Assembly: GCA_000002445.1 (NCBI GenBank)
Contig: CP000070.1
Span: 960,001-1,024,000 of the forward strand
Direction: 5' to 3'
DNA length: 64,000 nt
Source of the DNA: Trypanosoma brucei
Taxonomy: Eukaryota
Of the stretch, positions 7,802 to 17,311 are shown one piece after another. Below the pieces are notes generated by a model. The model saw only the letters and a program-made list of their open reading frames with translations. It was not told where the DNA came from and ran no database searches. The number at the start of each line of letters is the position of its first letter. Position 1 is the stretch's first letter. Position numbers and translations under genes: made by a program.

Positions 7802-8054
7802 ATTTCGCCCCTCTCTTTACCGCGCTGTTGTGTGCCGGCGCCGTTGTACTTTTTTTCCCTTTCCACGGAAGAAATAAGTTACCGTCCCCTCTTTTTTTCT
7901 CTCTTCTCCAAGTCAACTCCTTCTTCAATTACCCCTCTATGTTCGTCCCTCCAACAGCAAATATATTGTTACAGTGAAGCGACTGATAGGTGAAAGGAAT
8001 TAAGGCATTGTAATAATAGACAAACGGAGGGAAAAATAAAGAAATAAATAACAG

Positions 8055-8080
8055 GGTGTGTGTGTGTGTGTGTGTGTGTG
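8055..8080. repeat. (GT)13 dinucleotide repeat
   Basis: 'gtgtgtgtgtgtgtgtgtgtgtgtgtg'. Confidence 0.9.
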
Positions 8081-9545
8081 GCAAGGAGTAATTTACATAT
8101 GATGAAGAAGCTCGTCACAAGACAAACATAAGGGTATTGAAAAGGTTTCGAATAAGAAAAAAAAAACTGTGTGCGAGTCATCACTCCCACTTTGGAAATG
8201 TTACACTTGCTTTTGAACAGCCCATTACTGCGAAGGTATAACCATTAAGACGCAATGCGTCGAAGTTTCCGGGCAAAGAACCCCACATCAAACGTAATTG
8301 TCTTGGAAACCTTCCGCAAGTTTCCCTTAGATGCTTCCTTTCAGAACAGAAAAATAAAAAAAAGAAAGGAGGAGAGCGGGTTGTTCCTCATTCTTCCCCA
8401 CATCTCGCTTTTCTTCACTCTCCTCAAAAAAGAAAAGTAAAGAAATTTCCCTCACTTCTATTTCCATGTGACCTGCCGTGTTACATTCATTCATTCTTTC
8501 TTTTTTTTTTTGTTTTCTTCCTCTGCCAGGTGAATCAAAGACACGAGCCGCCAAGTGAAAGTAACGCATGCGGAGCGGGGGCAAAAGGTGCGGCCAAAAA
8601 CAAATTTACACACAAGTTCACAAACGGATAAGTAAAAGACAAAGACGCAATCGAAAGAAGCGACACCGAAAAAAAAAAACAACTTTGAAATAATGAATAA
8701 CAAAAATATGGAAAAAGAAGTGGATGGTCCGTTTTTTTTAATTTTTTTTTCTCAAGGAGGGAACAAATAATCCAACAAAACAAATCGGGGAAGTTTGGAA
8801 CTATCCAACAAAGAAAAAAACATCAGGAACACGAAAAGATAAAACAAAAGTAAAAATATAAGGATAAATGGTTCCATTTACCCACACTCACACACAAACA
8901 CAAACAAACAAACAAACAAACAGAAGCGGGTGCGCACACACACGCATGCAGATATTCTAATAATCACAACGGCCACATAAGTTAATTACAATAGTCACAT
9001 TTTATTATCGTTTTTGTCATCGGTCCCAAGGCACAACCACCTTCTTGCTGACCTTTTTTTTTTGGCTTTTTTGCCATTTATTTTGTTCCCTTTTACCACA
9101 ACCACCTTCATTATTATAACCACTATTACAATTGTCACTATTATTATTATTATTATTATTTTCAGCGTCATTACCATTTGCTTTCGTTATTATCATCATG
9201 TGACACACACACACACACTCTCTCTCTCTCTCTCTCACTCACACTCACACTCACATTCTCTTGTATATTTGTACCTTTATTGTTTATTTTATTTTATTTA
9301 TTTTTTTTTCTAATTATGGTTTTCTACCTTTCCTAACTCTCTTCCCTCCCATCACTTTCTACCGCTTCCCCGTCGTAAGTCTCCGCGGCTACGCAGGATG
9401 AACCCACTTTATAATATATAAATATAAATAAATATATACAAATGTGAGAGTCGAAACATTAAAAACATCTCTTTACCCGTCATTTTTCTCCTCTTGTGTT
9501 TGCCCTTTCCATAAAAATTACCTCTCATCCCTTCTATCAATGTAT

Positions 9546-13500: not shown

Positions 13501-16288
13501 GGCGAAATTCAAAAGGAAAAAAAACAGCAAAACGCACATTTTTTGTCCATTTTTATCAATCGCCTCCTCATATCATTTCCTCAAATTCTTTACAGCGTTT
13601 ATGCGTGCAGAATAGATAAAAATGAAGGGATCAAATATTGAAATTGAGGCGAAGTGGCAGAAAAAAAAAAGGAGGGGGAGAGTCGAGAAAAAAGAAAGAA
13701 AAAAACAAAAGAAGACTGAAAATTTTTTTTCTTTTTTAAACAAAAACCATGTACAAAAAGGAAAAAAGAAAACAACGCCAATAGCAAGCAAATTAATAAT
13801 GATAATAAGAACCGCCATTGCTGATATTATTATTATTATTATAACAGTAATAATAATAATAAGCTGCATAACAATTGAAGATGCGCCTTACAGCCACTCA
13901 TCTCTTACTTTTCATACACGCCACATTCCTCTTCCACTACTGTGCGGTGGTTTATTCCTCTTGTATTTCTCCTCACATCTTTTATTTATCTTATGTTTTC
14001 CTTTTTTTTTTTTTCGTCCTTGCTTCTCCTCCTTTTTCCCTTGCTTCAAGTCTTTTTTTTAAAAAAAAATTATTATTATTGTTATTATTTCCTCTAACGC
14101 TTTTTTCTCCTCTTTTCTCGACAAATGCAACAGCGAAAAAGACGACGATCATTACCAGAGCAACAACAATAATAATAATAATAATAACACCACAAATACA
14201 CGAAGTGTTTAAATACCAAAATGCAATAAATATTGTTGGGAAGGTCCAGAACCCTTTAACAAAAGAAAACAAAAAATCACCTTTACGTATAAATTTAAAC
14301 ATGCAAATGTACACGTATATAATTGCTTTCTTATTCTTTCTCATTTTATTCATTCACTCTTCCTCCAGTCCCCCTTTCTTCCCCAGCGTTGTGCAACACA
14401 TTAAACAAAAACAAAAGAAACAAAAAAAACAAAAAACAAAAATAAAACAGAAATAAAAGTGGCTGTAGAATCAGCTAATGTGAAGTTAAGCAAGCTGTAT
14501 TATAACGGATACGAAAGCAAGATAAAATAAGACAATCGGAGGGAAAGTGAGGCGAGGACAGAAAAAAACAAAAACAAAAACAAAAAGGAAAAGGAAATTA
14601 GGGGAGTTGCGCCGCATGTTTTGATTATTCCTTTTTTTTCTTAAAAAAAAAACTGAAAAAAATGCTTTGATTCCATTCATTTTCTTTCAGCAACGACCTC
14701 CAACTTCCACCATATTCCGGGCGACAGATGAAGTAAAAGAAAAAAAAAAGAAAGATGACAAATAATAAAGAAAAGAGGAAACCAGTGGAAGAGCATAAGA
14801 ATAATTACAATAAGTGTAGGAAAAAGAAACAAAAACAAAAACAAGAATAGCATCTTCCTTCCTTCCTTCTGTTTGCATTATTGGTGTTGTTCCCATTCGT
14901 GTCTCACCAATCGCACATAATTCATTTTATATTACACTATATCATATGTATATATGTATATACACCTATGTACTAAATTTAAATACGAACATGCATTCCT
15001 CCACATTTTTTATATTTTTTTTAAAAAAATTTTTACGGGCTCTGCTCATTTATTTCCTTCCTATTGTTCTTCTCGCTCGATTGCATCTTTCAAAAATATA
15101 GGGAACGCCATGCATTTCAACGTCAGCAAAAAAAAAATTCTTCTTTTCTTTCTCTTTGGCACCTGAAGACCCACTGAGATAACAAAGGAAAATAACTGCG
15201 ATGAACCAAGCAGATTAATGAAAAGAAAAAAAAAGGATCATAAAAAAATGATGATAATGACGGGAATAATGTTACTAATACTAATGATCGTGTCCACGCA
15301 AGGAGAAACGAAAAAAAAAAAATGGACAAGGGAACGGAAGAAAAGAAAAAGGAAAAGGTCAACGACGAAAAAAACTGGCAAAAAAGATAATGATGGTAAC
15401 AAAAAAAAACCGAGGGCACTGTTCACTTCTTCACAAGTAATGTGTACCAGCGCGTGATAATTTGGCGGAGAGGGGGGAGGAAAAAAAAAAATGATTTAAA
15501 GGGGGGAAAACAAAAAGCGACAACAAAAGCCACCCAAAACAAAAGCTTGGGGGAAGGGGGATTTGAACAAAACAAGCAAAGCAAAGGGGGAAAGACATAA
15601 AATCTGGTAGAATAGAAAGAAAAAAAAAGGAGAAAGGAAGACAAACAGAAGAACGCAGAGCTACGAAAGACAATGAGTCTGCGCACAGACAGAAGACGGC
15701 AGCGGGCACATAGTAAATAAACCAATGCAAAAACCCGCTTGTGCCTTTCCCACTGAGAGGGTCACCAGAAACGGCACACGAAAACATACGAAATGAGAGG
15801 AAGTACGACAAAAAGAACACATGAAACAAAGAAAAATGCCATAAACATGTGGGGGCCTTCCAGGACGCGGGGAGCAAACAAAGGGGAATACACGAAAGAA
15901 AATGGAGGAGAAAAAGGGCAAACGACTCCGGTAATCCAAAATGGTATGGTGTACGCTGCGCGTCACTCCTTTTCTTTTCTTTTCTCCACTCCAAACCCTT
16001 TTATTTCCATCATTCTCGCATTTACTTCGTCAGTTTCACTCCCCACGCACGGACACAAATATACACGCACACACCTCCCAGTCCTAAGGATAAATTGACG
16101 ATCATCATCTCACAATCCCTAACAAAGACGACGTTGGTGGTAAAAACAAAAGACGACAGCAACAACAGATACACCAACTCCATTAAACGGTGGTCATCTC
16201 CTTTCAAAGACAAGTCTTCCCTACACCATAAGTACTCACAGGTGGACACGAGCAGCCCGCCACTCCTCATTTTGCAACCAATGATGGT

Positions 16289-17311
16289 TTAGTTTGGGCT
16301 CATGAAGTTGGTGGTTCCGATCATCCGAGTCGTCGGGCTACTGAGAGCCGCGCCGCAAAGGCTGCCGGTGGTTGGGTCCGAAGCACCCAGGGGTGTAAAA
16401 AAGGACGAAACGCTGCCCTGAAGGATTCCGTCTCGCACCGGATTAAGAGGCATGTATGACTGAAAGCAAAGCGGCTCCATAGTCTTGGACGAAGGATGGT
16501 ACTGCTCGGGTTGAGTTGCTGAATTCGACTGTTGTACCCGCGGAATAGTCATCGCCGGAACTGGTTGGGTTGTCATGCTTAAGACGCTTAACTCCATGGG
16601 GCTGCTGCTTCCACAAGTTTTTATGTTGCCAGTAACGATGCCACCTGTGTCACCCTCACTAAGCACTACCGGCGGCTGTATTGTTGAGAGTGCCGGGGCC
16701 CAACTAGCTGGCACCGTTTGCACAAACTGCTGATTGCCTACGGGAGCCGCCATAATGCCGGGCGCTGCTTGTATCATATGCATACGACCTCTGTCCACAA
16801 GTGCGAATGTGGCAGGGTGATGCACTGTCGTTTCTTGCGGCCGCGCCATTGCTGTTAGTACGCTGTTTCTTGAGTCGAATGGGTGTACAATGGGGCAGGG
16901 GACAAGGCTCGAGGTAGTCAAGGAGATTTGCTCCACAGCACCATCGCCGAAGCACGGCCCGCTCACTTTGGGTGGAGCAGAGCCCGGTGGTGCTCTCGGC
17001 CCTGGCTGACGCACGGATGTTGAACCTGCTGCCTGTGAGTACTTCCTGGGCCCAGTGGCTTGCGTGACACGAAGACGCTTATTGTTAATCGAGTATCCAT
17101 TCATCCGCGACATCGCGTTCATCGCGGACTCTACAAACTTGTAACGAACGAATCCGTATCCTTTAGGGTGATTTCCGTTCTCGCGGTCGCATATGATACG
17201 AACAGAAACTAATGGTCCAAAAGGTCTAAACAGCTCCTCAAGGTCTTCCTCCGTCACAGGGGTTGGGATGTAATTAACAATGAGATTGCGCGGATCCTGG
17301 TGCGTTTCCAT
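16289..17311 (-). CDS. RNA-binding protein with a single N-terminal RRM and a Pro/Gln/Ala/Thr-rich C-terminus
   Basis: The RRM shows RNP2 (NLIVNYIP) and RNP1 (KGYGFVRY) within 'RNLIVNYIPTPVTEEDLEELFRPFGPLVSVRIICDRENGNHPKGYGFVRYKFVESAMNAMSRMNGYSINNKRLRV'. ATG verified at 17311. Confidence 0.85.
   Translation of the reverse strand: METHQDPRNLIVNYIPTPVTEEDLEELFRPFGPLVSVRIICDRENGNHPKGYGFVRYKFVESAMNAMSRMNGYSINNKRLRVTQATGPRKYSQAAGSTSVRQPGPRAPPGSAPPKVSGPCFGDGAVEQISLTTSSLVPCPIVHPFDSRNSVLTAMARPQETTVHHPATFALVDRGRMHMIQAAPGIMAAPVGNQQFVQTVPASWAPALSTIQPPVVLSEGDTGGIVTGNIKTCGSSSPMELSVLSMTTQPVPAMTIPRVQQSNSATQPEQYHPSSKTMEPLCFQSYMPLNPVRDGILQGSVSSFFTPLGASDPTTGSLCGAALSSPTTRMIGTTNFMSPN

What the first reader, a model, noticed from the sequence alone, without database searches (positions are those of the whole stretch)
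7802..17311. RRM protein gene followed by an 8.5 kb gene-free low-complexity tract: candidate giant regulatory 3' UTR
Inter-CDS distances elsewhere in the array are 0.2-1.7 kb. Downstream of the single-RRM protein (16289..17311, minus) there is 8.5 kb with no credible ORF, composed of A/T-rich microsatellites and purine/pyrimidine tracts. In trypanosomatids some developmental regulators (for example the RRM protein RBP10 in T. brucei) have 3' UTRs of several kb carrying regulatory elements. This gene/UTR pair has that architecture, and an RNA-binding protein with such a UTR is a candidate post-transcriptionally regulated developmental regulator. Alternatively the tract could hide non-coding RNAs.
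Basis: inference. Interest (0 to 1): 0.55.

Follow-up and report, generated by a model that had tools for sequence, protein, structure and literature searches.

The report
Long 3' UTR of trypanosome RBP26
The 8.5 kb gene-free stretch lies downstream of the known Trypanosoma brucei RNA-binding protein gene RBP26; published mapping already places its main mRNA end 3.5 kb into the stretch, so this is an ordinary, uncharacterised example of the very long 3' UTRs typical of trypanosome regulatory genes.

Summary
Window 7802..16288 is an 8,487-bp AT-rich (GC 0.345), low-complexity tract with no credible gene. It is 3 to 44 times longer than any other inter-CDS gap in the array.

The window is T. brucei TREU927 chromosome 7 (window coordinate = v4 coordinate minus 960,000). 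The RRM gene is Tb927.7.3730, RBP26, a known bloodstream-form-enriched RNA-binding protein.

Kolev et al. 2010 (Table S13) mapped its predominant poly(A) site 3,478 nt after the stop codon, at window 12811. The average 3' UTR was 3,980 nt and the dispersion 1,075 nt. Whether the whole 8.5 kb is one UTR is not shown.

A 77-nt polypyrimidine tract and an AG lie just by the mapped site. Together with 14 other sense-strand tracts they point to alternative internal processing, as described for RBP10 and DRBD12.

The gap downstream of the RBP26 orthologue is the largest local gap in all six trypanosomatids examined (2.1 kb to over 10 kb). Its sequence is not conserved.

Long 3' UTRs on RNA-binding-protein mRNAs are established trypanosome biology. 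Interest is low to moderate.

The parts
16289..17311 (-). RBP26 (Tb927.7.3730) coding sequence, 340 aa, single N-terminal RRM
   Evidence: ORF and translation. It is 100% identical to the T. equiperdum 'RNA-binding protein, putative'. The CDS size of 1023 nt matches the RBP26 entry in Mugo & Clayton 2017 Table S2. Its stop coordinate fits Kolev 2010: 976289 - 972811 = 3478.
17069..17284 (-). RRM domain (residues 10-81)
   Evidence: Pfam RRM_1, E=2.2e-19. The closest solved RRMs are those of PABP, Sex-lethal, T. cruzi UBP1 and HuR.
12811..16288 (-). Proximal tract: the experimentally supported RBP26 3' UTR, 3,478 nt up to the predominant poly(A) site
   Evidence: Kolev et al. 2010 Table S13 gives a predominant PAS at chr7 972811 and a predominant 3' UTR of 3478 nt. 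The coordinate offset of 960,000 was checked on three genes and one ORF.
12811..12811 (-). Predominant poly(A) addition site of RBP26 mRNA in procyclic cells
   Evidence: Kolev 2010 Table S13. The only UAUUUUUU in the tract starts at 12827, just upstream.
12837..12913 (-). 77-nt polypyrimidine tract, the longest in the tract, next to the mapped poly(A) site
   Evidence: PPT scan. The sequence can be read directly.
12693..12694 (-). Predicted internal trans-splice acceptor: the first AG after the pyrimidine-rich block, 118 nt downstream of the mapped poly(A) site
   Evidence: The distance fits the PAS-to-splice-site spacing in Kolev 2010 (median 142 nt, half of cases between 123 and 178 nt). 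This is predicted, not observed.
7802..12810 (-). Distal tract, 5.0 kb. It is either extended 3' UTR isoforms of RBP26, processing by-products or lncRNA, or both; its status is unresolved
   Evidence: The average PAS lies 502 nt beyond the predominant one and the dispersion is 1,075 nt, so some sites lie further downstream. The segment has six further sense-strand PPTs of at least 20 nt beyond the one at 12656..12682, five of them followed by an AG within 150 nt. No novel transcript is listed there in Kolev Table S7.
8343..8380 (-). Candidate polypyrimidine tract for trans-splicing of the downstream gene, with an AG at 8338-8339. It would cap the RBP26 UTR at about 7.8 kb
   Evidence: PPT scan. 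This is a prediction only; a nearer pyrimidine-rich stretch around 8000-8060 is an alternative.
13881..14456 (+). Old annotation Tb927.7.3720: a spurious 191-aa ORF on the opposite strand
   Evidence: It is listed in Kolev Table S2 as giving no detectable transcript. Its translation is low-complexity and has a stop codon in T. equiperdum. It has no Pfam hit and no exact match in the protein-contig index.
6383..7801 (-). Downstream gene (probably Tb927.7.3710), 472 aa, a conserved hypothetical protein
   Evidence: ORF. Orthologues exist in T. congolense and at the syntenic position in T. cruzi, E=5e-68.
17897..17897 (-). Predominant poly(A) site of the upstream gene Tb927.7.3740. It bounds the RBP26 5' UTR to under 586 nt
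   Evidence: Kolev Table S13 gives 977897 and a 3' UTR of 918 nt. The stop at 978815 corresponds to window 18815.

Best explanation
The tract is the 3' untranslated and downstream processing region of the T. brucei RBP26 mRNA.

Shown or established:
- In trypanosomes, RNA polymerase II transcribes the whole gene array as one polycistron (established knowledge).
- mRNA ends are set by polypyrimidine tract plus AG signals, which direct trans-splicing downstream and polyadenylation about 100-200 nt upstream.
- In procyclic cells the predominant RBP26 poly(A) site is 3.5 kb after the stop codon, at window 12811.
- That site sits at the edge of the longest pyrimidine-rich block in the tract, 118 nt upstream of the first following AG.

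Inferred:
- Other polypyrimidine tracts give shorter and longer isoforms. Distal ones could extend to about 7.8 kb, near the splice signal of the next gene.
- The RNA downstream of an internal site is then either degraded or released as a spliced, non-coding fragment.
- The long, U-rich and A-rich UTR probably serves as a platform for many RNA-binding proteins. These would keep the mRNA scarce and give its bloodstream-form-biased expression, with redundancy between segments, as shown experimentally for the 7.3-kb RBP10 UTR.
For: Identity:
- The protein matches the T. brucei group at 100%.
- Four coordinate matches to Kolev 2010 fix the offset at 960,000: the stops of Tb927.7.3730.3740 and .3680, and the ORF .3720.
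- The gene order PAP, Carb_kinase/YjeF, PSS, NIF, 849 aa, RRM fits the numbering 3780 to 3730.

Poly(A) mapping: the predominant 3' UTR is 3,478 nt, the average 3,980 nt and the dispersion 1,075 nt. The genome median is 388 nt.

Processing logic:
- A 77-nt PPT lies at 12913..12837 and the first AG at 12694/12693. This predicts a PAS zone of 12871..12816, next to the mapped 12811.
- There are 15 sense-strand PPTs of at least 20 nt, against 10 on the antisense strand.

No gene or known ncRNA lies inside, and Kolev lists no novel transcript there.

RBP26 mRNA behaves like other long regulated RBP mRNAs:
- BSF/PCF ratio of 2.3.
- 15-fold higher in bloodstream forms than in salivary-gland forms.
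- Reduced in stumpy-like isolates.
- Increased after ZC3H20/21 RNAi, where it is described as bloodstream-form specific.
- The most enriched transcript in TbRRM1 RIP-seq at 95-fold, next to RBP10 at 58-fold; enrichment correlated with transcript length.

The class is documented: the RBP10 3' UTR is 7.3 kb with at least six regulatory segments, ZC3H22's is over 5 kb, DRBD12 mRNA is 8.4 kb, DRBD18 suppresses internal PPT use, and the longest UTRs are found in RBP and kinase mRNAs.

Comparative evidence: the gap after the RBP26 orthologue is the largest local gap in every species looked at.
- A. deanei: 2.1 kb.
- T. conorhini: 2.9 kb.
- T. melophagium: 3.2 kb.
- T. cruzi: 3.9 and 4.6 kb.
- T. brucei: 8.5 kb.
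- T. vivax: over 10 kb.
Against: - The only mapping I could retrieve is from procyclic cells in 2010. It stops, for the predominant site, 5 kb short of the next gene.
- Poly(A) sites were assigned to the nearest upstream gene. Distal sites counted for RBP26 could therefore belong to independent non-coding RNAs.
- I found no Northern blot, long-read or bloodstream-form end mapping for RBP26. The supplements of Siegel 2010, Guegan 2022, the DRBD18 and ZC3H28 papers and the RRM1 paper are not held.
- No reporter data exist for this UTR.
- There is no primary-sequence conservation with other species above a composition-matched null. Conserved regulatory elements therefore cannot be pointed to.
- Tethered RBP26 had no effect on a reporter and RNAi gave only a slight growth defect. 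The 'developmental regulator' role of the protein itself is therefore weak.
Confidence: 0.7

Rival explanations
1. Only the proximal 3.5-4 kb or so is RBP26 UTR. The distal 5 kb or so (7802..12810) gives rise to one or more independent trans-spliced, polyadenylated long non-coding RNAs, either functional or processing by-products.
For: An internal PPT and AG lie right after the mapped poly(A) site, and seven more sense-strand PPTs follow downstream. T. brucei has about 1,400 mostly intergenic lncRNAs with normal splicing and poly(A) signals. After DRBD18 loss, non-coding RNAs arise from within long 3' UTRs.
Against: Kolev 2010 lists no novel transcript between chr7 949,928 and 1,018,302. The average PAS lies beyond the predominant one, which fits longer RBP26 isoforms just as well. 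No Rfam family or structured element was found. This reading is not exclusive of the main explanation.
Confidence: 0.3
2. The distal part of the tract is an unusually long 5' UTR of the downstream gene (6383..7801).
For: An RNA spliced at the predicted AG at 12693 would run into the next CDS. Kolev reports 5' UTRs of up to about 2,500 nt.
Against: A 4.9-kb 5' UTR would be about twice the longest reported and would be full of upstream AUGs. Good PPT and AG signals lie 0.2-0.55 kb upstream of the downstream start codon. Logan contigs carrying that gene start only 155-282 nt upstream, but these are repeat-limited and uninformative.
Confidence: 0.07
3. The tract hides a protein-coding gene or small conserved ORF that the ORF scan missed.
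For: GeneDB once annotated a 191-aa ORF here, Tb927.7.3720. Kolev found many novel short coding transcripts genome-wide.
Against: That ORF is on the non-transcribed strand, is low-complexity, has no Pfam hit, is broken in T. equiperdum and gave no transcript. All other ORFs of at least 70 aa are homopolymer-like translations. tblastn and blastn against five other species find nothing above the null.
Confidence: 0.04
4. The tract has a DNA-level role, such as a replication origin, a chromatin boundary or a recombination-prone spacer, and its size is unrelated to RBP26 mRNA.
For: It is AT-rich and low-complexity. It is also hard to assemble: the T. equiperdum contig ends inside it, the T. grayi contig ends 183 bp after the stop codon, and one T. 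cruzi assembly has an N-run in it.
Against: It lies in the middle of a unidirectional transcription unit, far from the strand-switch region at about 54-59 kb. Poly(A) sites map inside it. It has no tandem satellite or inverted-repeat architecture.
Confidence: 0.03

Closest known systems
T. brucei RBP10 (Tb927.8.2780) mRNA with its 7.3-kb regulatory 3' UTR
   Same: Both are single-RRM protein genes inside a polycistron, followed by a multi-kb, gene-free, U-rich and A-rich tract. Both mRNAs are more abundant in bloodstream forms. Both are among the most enriched RNAs in TbRRM1 RIP-seq. Both tracts contain many internal polypyrimidine tracts. The two proteins interact weakly.
   Different: The RBP10 UTR has been dissected: at least six segments confer low procyclic expression, and DRBD18 controls its processing. 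Nothing comparable exists for RBP26. RBP26 regulation is milder, at about 2.3-fold BSF/PCF. The predominant mapped RBP26 UTR is 3.5 kb, not the full gap. RBP26 has no master-regulator phenotype.
Other long-UTR regulator mRNAs: ZC3H22 (Tb927.7.2680, over 5 kb) and DRBD12 (mRNA about 8.4 kb)
   Same: They belong to the same class: RNA-binding-protein mRNAs with 3' UTRs more than ten times the median, prone to alternative internal processing.
   Different: ZC3H22 is procyclic-specific and carries nine UA(U)6 RBP10-binding motifs. The RBP26 tract has one such motif in 8.5 kb against about 3.8 expected, as would suit an mRNA that has to survive in the presence of RBP10.
CstF-64 (CSTF2/Rna15), the polyadenylation factor
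   Same: Both have an N-terminal RRM followed by a long low-complexity region. A 2012 phylogenetic survey listed Tb927.7.3730 as the T. brucei CSTF2 best hit. The gene lies five genes from poly(A) polymerase.
   Different: No CstF-64 hinge or C-terminal domain is detected, even at E up to 10, in the T. brucei, T. cruzi or T. vivax proteins. The CstF-64 RRM is only a mid-ranking structural relative at E=4e-16, behind PABP, Sxl, UBP1 and HuR.

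Membership tests
Trypanosome long regulatory 3' UTRs of regulator mRNAs (RBP10 / ZC3H22 / DRBD12 type) | The CDS encodes an RNA-binding protein or kinase | tested here: met
   RRM_1 at E=2e-19. The gene is identified as RBP26.
Trypanosome long regulatory 3' UTRs of regulator mRNAs (RBP10 / ZC3H22 / DRBD12 type) | Poly(A) sites mapped several kb after the stop codon | tested here: met
   Kolev 2010 Table S13 gives a predominant 3' UTR of 3,478 nt and an average of 3,980 nt, against a median of 388 nt. 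This comes from the literature, from procyclic cells only.
Trypanosome long regulatory 3' UTRs of regulator mRNAs (RBP10 / ZC3H22 / DRBD12 type) | The UTR spans the whole gap to the next gene's splice signal (a full-length mRNA of about 9 kb) | not testable with these tools
   This needs a Northern blot or long reads. The dispersion of 1,075 nt and the average beyond the predominant site hint at longer isoforms.
Trypanosome long regulatory 3' UTRs of regulator mRNAs (RBP10 / ZC3H22 / DRBD12 type) | No independent gene within the tract | tested here: met
Trypanosome long regulatory 3' UTRs of regulator mRNAs (RBP10 / ZC3H22 / DRBD12 type) | The mRNA is developmentally regulated | tested here: met
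   From the literature: BSF/PCF 2.3, 15-fold higher in bloodstream forms than in salivary-gland forms, 'bloodstream-form specific', and lower on procyclic than on bloodstream polysomes.
Trypanosome long regulatory 3' UTRs of regulator mRNAs (RBP10 / ZC3H22 / DRBD12 type) | UTR fragments confer stage-specific expression on a reporter | not testable with these tools
   No published data were found in the eight papers that mention RBP26.
Trypanosome long regulatory 3' UTRs of regulator mRNAs (RBP10 / ZC3H22 / DRBD12 type) | Internal polypyrimidine tracts with alternative processing | tested here: met
   15 sense-strand PPTs of at least 20 nt. The mapped PAS sits next to the longest one. PAS dispersion is high.
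RBP10 target mRNAs (procyclic-specific, UA(U)6-containing) | Multiple UAUUUUUU motifs in the 3' UTR | tested here: not met
   One motif in 8,487 nt, against 3.8 +/- 1.8 in dinucleotide shuffles. There are none in the 10-kb T. vivax tract.
RBP10 target mRNAs (procyclic-specific, UA(U)6-containing) | At least 3-fold enrichment in the RBP10 pull-down | tested here: not met
   Eluate/unbound ratios are 2.52 and 2.54, below the authors' 3-fold cut-off.
CstF-64 / Rna15 | N-terminal RRM | tested here: met
CstF-64 / Rna15 | Hinge domain and conserved C-terminal domain | tested here: not met
   Pfam finds only RRM families at E up to 10 in the T. brucei, T. cruzi and T. vivax orthologues.
Known non-coding RNA genes (snoRNA, tRNA, other Rfam families) | A match to a covariance model at gathering score, or a tRNA prediction | tested here: not met
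   No Rfam hits over the whole window, only sub-threshold repeat-driven hits in the tract, and no tRNAs.

The most novel reading that the evidence does not exclude
The spacer downstream of RBP26 may be under selection for length and composition rather than sequence. It is the largest local gap from Angomonas to Trypanosoma and has expanded to 8.5 kb and over 10 kb in African trypanosomes. On this reading, stage-specific choice between the 3.5-kb site and far-distal sites is the actual switch that sets RBP26 levels. Alternatively, the distal 5 kb may release a functional lncRNA.
Probability: 0.2. Interest if true: 0.45.

Novelty: new member of a known kind. Interest (0 to 1): 0.25.

Why it matters
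Trypanosomes control genes almost entirely after transcription. Very long 3' UTRs on mRNAs for RNA-binding proteins are one of the few recognised control devices, and only the RBP10 UTR has been dissected in detail.

RBP26 is a bloodstream-form-enriched RBP that interacts weakly with RBP10, and its mRNA is the top TbRRM1-bound transcript. Its UTR has not been studied. It would be a reasonable second test case for three questions: how long UTRs work, whether internal polypyrimidine tracts are actively masked, and whether UTR length is itself under selection.

None of this is surprising to a specialist. The gene, its regulation and its poly(A) sites are already public.

Tried and rejected
- Hidden ncRNA. 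Rfam at gathering score on the whole window gave no hits. E-value mode on the tract gave only miRNA models on TA and TG repeats. ARAGORN found nothing.
- Hidden gene. All ATG ORFs of at least 70 aa are low-complexity. The largest, old Tb927.7.3720, is broken in T. equiperdum, has no Pfam hit and is not in the contig index.
- Transposon or dispersed-repeat origin. The repeat search found only low-complexity families.
- Sequence conservation.
  - An alignment of the first 600 nt after the stop codon in five species is unalignable.
  - blastn of the tract against the syntenic tracts of T. vivax, T. cruzi (two assemblies), T. melophagium, T. conorhini and A. deanei gives nothing above a locally shuffled null.
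- Constraint from T. brucei versus T. equiperdum. Divergence is too low, at 0-2%, and clusters in microsatellites, so it is uninformative.
- A frameshifted orthologue of the downstream gene inside the T. vivax 10-kb tract. The four largest ORFs and a tblastn search were all negative.
- RNA evidence from Logan contigs. The two contigs carrying the downstream gene end at a microsatellite and at a non-AG position, with no spliced leader, so they are uninformative.
- Further end-mapping data. The supplements of Siegel 2010, Guegan 2022, the DRBD18, ZC3H28 and RRM1 papers are not held as text.
- A misreading of mine, corrected. The numbers '703' and '213' next to RBP26 in a Mugo & Clayton table are yeast two-hybrid read counts, not UTR lengths.
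- The CstF-64 identity proposed in a 2012 survey is not supported.

Full report
**1. Observation**

The ORF at 16289..17311 on the minus strand encodes a 340-aa protein with one N-terminal RRM (Pfam RRM_1, E=2e-19, residues 10-81) followed by a low-complexity tail. The next credible coding sequence on that strand is 6383..7801. The gap is therefore 7802..16288, 8,487 bp.

The other 16 inter-CDS gaps of the minus-strand array range from 191 to 2,815 bp, with a median of about 630 bp. The tract is thus three times the next largest gap and about 13 times the median.

The tract has GC 0.345, against 0.520 for nine pooled CDSs and 0.419 for the other intergenic regions. About 28% of it lies in 50-nt windows that are at least 85% purine, at least 85% pyrimidine or at least 85% A+T; the figures are 10% for other intergenic regions and 0% for CDS.

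True tandem arrays are short, at most 68 nt, and cover under a tenth of the tract. 'Microsatellites' is therefore an overstatement. The texture is homopolymer runs plus alternating purine-rich and pyrimidine-rich blocks.

**2. Nothing else is hidden there**

- No tRNA was found, and no Rfam family at gathering score over the whole window.
- In E-value mode the only hits are miRNA models on (TA)n and (TG)n repeats, at less than half their gathering scores.
- A window-wide repeat search finds only low-complexity families in the tract.
- All ATG ORFs of at least 70 aa translate to homopolymer-like peptides.
- The longest ORF, 191 aa at 13881..14456, is on the opposite strand. It has no Pfam hit and acquires a stop codon in T. 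equiperdum.

**3. What the locus is**

The RRM protein is 100% identical to a T. equiperdum 'RNA-binding protein, putative'. It is 42%, 38% and 34% identical to proteins of T. congolense, T. vivax and T. grayi.

The supplementary tables of Kolev et al. 2010 (PMC2936537) fix the position exactly:
- Tb927.7.3730 has its predominant poly(A) site at chr7 972,811 with a 3' UTR of 3,478 nt. That puts the stop at 976,289.
- Tb927.7.3740 has 977,897 and 918 nt, so its stop is at 978,815.
- Tb927.7.3680 has 961,024 and 263 nt, so its stop is at 961,287.
- The ORF Tb927.7.3720 is at 973,881..974,456 on the plus strand.

Subtracting 960,000 gives window 16289, 18815, 1287 and 13881..14456, which are exactly the ORF boundaries seen here.

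The window is therefore T. brucei TREU927 chromosome 7, v4 coordinates 960,001-1,024,000, and the RRM gene is Tb927.7.3730, named RBP26.

Two further checks agree. The CDS length of 1,023 nt matches the RBP26 entry in Mugo & Clayton 2017. The upstream order, NIF phosphatase, phosphatidylserine synthase, YjeF/carbohydrate kinase, poly(A) polymerase, fits the numbering 3750 to 3780; a survey lists Tb927.7.3780 as PAP.

Tb927.7.3720 is thus not the downstream gene. It is the spurious opposite-strand ORF inside the tract, and Kolev Table S2 lists it among annotated ORFs that give no detectable transcript. The 472-aa downstream gene is presumably Tb927.7.3710; this is inferred from the numbering.

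**4. Direct evidence on the 3' end**

[quoted passage not shown] For Tb927.7.3730 it gives 972,309; 3,979.99; 972,811; 3,478; 1,074.87.

In procyclic cells the main RBP26 poly(A) site is therefore at window 12811, 3.5 kb after the stop codon. The genome-wide median is 388 nt and the reported range reaches about 6,000 nt.

The read-weighted average lies 502 nt beyond the predominant site, while the weighted mean absolute distance is 1,075 nt. Arithmetic on these two numbers means that both more proximal and more distal sites are used, with distal sites contributing more (about 790 against 290 nt of weighted distance). This is my inference. Sites were assigned to the nearest upstream gene, so distal ones need not be attached to the RBP26 CDS.

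Kolev's list of 1,114 novel transcripts has none on chromosome 7 between 949,928 and 1,018,302. No independent transcript was therefore called in the tract in that data set.

**5. The sequence fits the processing rules**

In T. brucei the polypyrimidine tract has a median length of 18 nt and starts a median of 43 nt upstream of the splice acceptor. The upstream poly(A) site lies a median of 142 nt from the acceptor, with half of cases between 123 and 178 nt.

Scanning the sense strand gives 15 tracts of at least 20 nt and at least 88% pyrimidine, against 10 on the antisense strand. The longest is 77 nt at 12913..12837. The pyrimidine-rich block continues to the first AG at 12694/12693. This predicts a poly(A) zone of 12871..12816, next to the mapped site at 12811, which is 118 nt from that AG.

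Further tracts with a following AG point to candidate processing sites near 15.6, 15.4, 15.3, 15.2, 14.5, 13.6, 12.6, 11.4, 10.7, 10.6, 8.4 and 8.3 kb. The last is a PPT at 8380..8343 with an AG at 8339/8338. If it serves the downstream gene, it would cap an RBP26 UTR at about 7.8 kb. All of these sites are predictions.

**6. What is known about RBP26 and about this class of UTR**

RBP26 mRNA:
- It is 2.3-fold higher in bloodstream than in procyclic forms.
- It is 15-fold higher in bloodstream than in salivary-gland parasites.
- It is reduced in stumpy-like field isolates.
- It is called bloodstream-form specific and rises after ZC3H20/21 depletion.
- It is reported to rise after RBP6 induction.
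- It was the most enriched of all transcripts in TbRRM1 RIP-seq at 95-fold, with RBP10 at 58-fold; longer transcripts were preferentially enriched.
- It was enriched 2.5-fold with RBP10, below the authors' 3-fold cut-off.

RBP26 protein interacts weakly with RBP10. It has no effect when tethered to a reporter, and RNAi gives only a slight growth defect.

Long 3' UTRs are an established feature. [quoted passage not shown] The 7.3-kb RBP10 UTR contains at least six independently acting regulatory segments and is proposed to be a fail-safe arrangement. DRBD18 binds long, PPT-containing 3' UTRs and prevents use of internal signals; when it is lost, RBP10 and DRBD12 mRNAs shorten and non-coding fragments appear.

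The tract contains one UAUUUUUU, the RBP10 recognition motif, against 3.8 +/- 1.8 expected. This is not significant, but it fits an mRNA that co-exists with RBP10.

**7. Comparative evidence (the new part)**

The gene order (PAP), carbohydrate kinase, PSS, NIF, a protein of about 800 aa, RRM protein, gap, a protein of about 480 aa is conserved. The downstream T. cruzi protein is a clear orthologue of the T. brucei 472-aa protein (E=5e-68).

In every species the gap after the RRM gene is the largest in the 10-20 kb examined:

| Species | Gap after the RRM gene | Other local gaps |
|---|---|---|
| Angomonas deanei | 2.1 kb | 0.14-1.0 kb |
| T. conorhini | 2.9 kb | 0.4-0.7 kb |
| T. melophagium | 3.2 kb | 0.3-2.2 kb |
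| T. cruzi (two assemblies) | 3.9 and 4.6 kb | 0.3-1.7 kb |
| T. brucei | 8.5 kb | 0.2-2.8 kb |
| T. vivax | over 10 kb | 0.6-1.4 kb |

In T. vivax the 10 kb has no called gene, no ORF above 170 aa, 107-132 stop codons per forward frame, and no tblastn match to the three T. brucei downstream proteins.

The tracts share composition: low GC and many poly-pyrimidine and poly-purine runs. They do not share sequence. The first 600 nt after the stop codon cannot be aligned. The best blastn scores against each species fall within the range obtained with locally shuffled queries.

Several assemblies break here. The T. equiperdum contig ends 5.3 kb into the tract, the T. grayi contig ends 183 bp after the stop codon, and one T. 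cruzi assembly has 793 Ns.

**8. Interpretation**

Shown:
- The tract is gene-free.
- It is part of a polycistron.
- RBP26 mRNAs end predominantly 3.5 kb into it in procyclic cells.
- RBP26 is developmentally regulated.
- A long downstream spacer is a conserved property of this gene.

Inferred:
- The tract is a multi-isoform 3' UTR whose length is set by competition among internal PPT and AG signals.
- It extends in some isoforms toward about 7.8 kb.
- It works as an RBP-binding platform like the RBP10 UTR.

The main open point is the status of the distal 5 kb: longer UTR isoforms, spliced non-coding by-products or lncRNA, or both. A long 5' UTR of the next gene, a hidden gene or a DNA-level role are all unlikely, for the reasons given under the rival explanations.

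**9. Side issue: the protein**

A 2012 survey listed Tb927.7.3730 as the T. brucei CstF-64. Only the RRM supports this. No hinge or C-terminal CstF-64 domain is detectable in three orthologues, even at E up to 10. The RRM is closer to those of PABP, Sex-lethal, T. cruzi UBP1 and HuR than to CstF-64. I do not file it as CstF-64.

**10. Verdict**

It also rediscovers known biology: a known gene, a known class of UTR and publicly mapped poly(A) sites. The RBP26 UTR itself has not been functionally studied. The conservation of its length without conservation of its sequence is a modest new point. Interest is 0.25; it is a new member of a known kind.

Noticed in passing
window 38740..41964: About 26 head-to-tail copies of a 117-nt unit, 98-100% identical, lie inside the 1,803-aa minus-strand ORF 38727..44138. 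This is a protein with about 26 near-perfect 39-residue repeats.
   Followed up: no
window about 53,650..59,310: This is a divergent strand-switch region: minus-strand genes end at 53651 and plus-strand genes start at 59311. Kolev 2010 lists two novel plus-strand transcripts nearby, Tb7.NT.39 (window 58302..59200) and Tb7.NT.40 (window 60467..61219).
   Followed up: no
window 28310..30493 (-), and L009 511..2445: A canonical poly(A) polymerase (PAP_NTPase, PAP_central and PAP_RNA-bind domains) lies five genes upstream of RBP26, the gene once labelled the CstF-64 homologue. The block PAP, carbohydrate kinase, PSS, NIF, X, RBP26 is syntenic from Angomonas deanei to Trypanosoma.
   Followed up: partly
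window 1890..4704: This is the second-largest gap in the array, 2.8 kb, also AT-rich (GC 0.31-0.36) and low-complexity. It lies downstream of the 305-aa gene 4705..5622. It contains the doubtful annotation Tb927.7.3690 (window 2765..3241, minus strand), which Kolev Table S2 also lists as giving no transcript.
   Followed up: no
L001 (ends at window about 11008), L003 (ends 183 bp after the stop codon), L005 (793 Ns in the gap): Short-read assemblies of T. equiperdum, T. grayi and one T. cruzi strain all break or are gapped inside the tract downstream of the RBP26 orthologue. Its length is therefore likely to be under-reported in draft genomes.
   Followed up: partly
window 7802..16288 and L002 10970..20969: The RBP10 recognition motif UAUUUUUU is nearly absent from these U-rich tracts: one copy in 8.5 kb of T. 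brucei (at 12827, next to the main poly(A) site) and none in 10 kb of T. vivax. The syntenic tracts of T. cruzi and T. melophagium, at 3.2-4.6 kb, have 2-3 copies each. The depletion in T. brucei alone is not significant (z = -1.5).
   Followed up: partly
window 1287..1889 (-): The 200-aa ORF, which the ORF finder starts at TTG, is the ubiquitin-ribosomal protein S27a fusion gene Tb927.7.3680. Its real start is probably an internal ATG, because orthologues are 150 aa.
   Followed up: no
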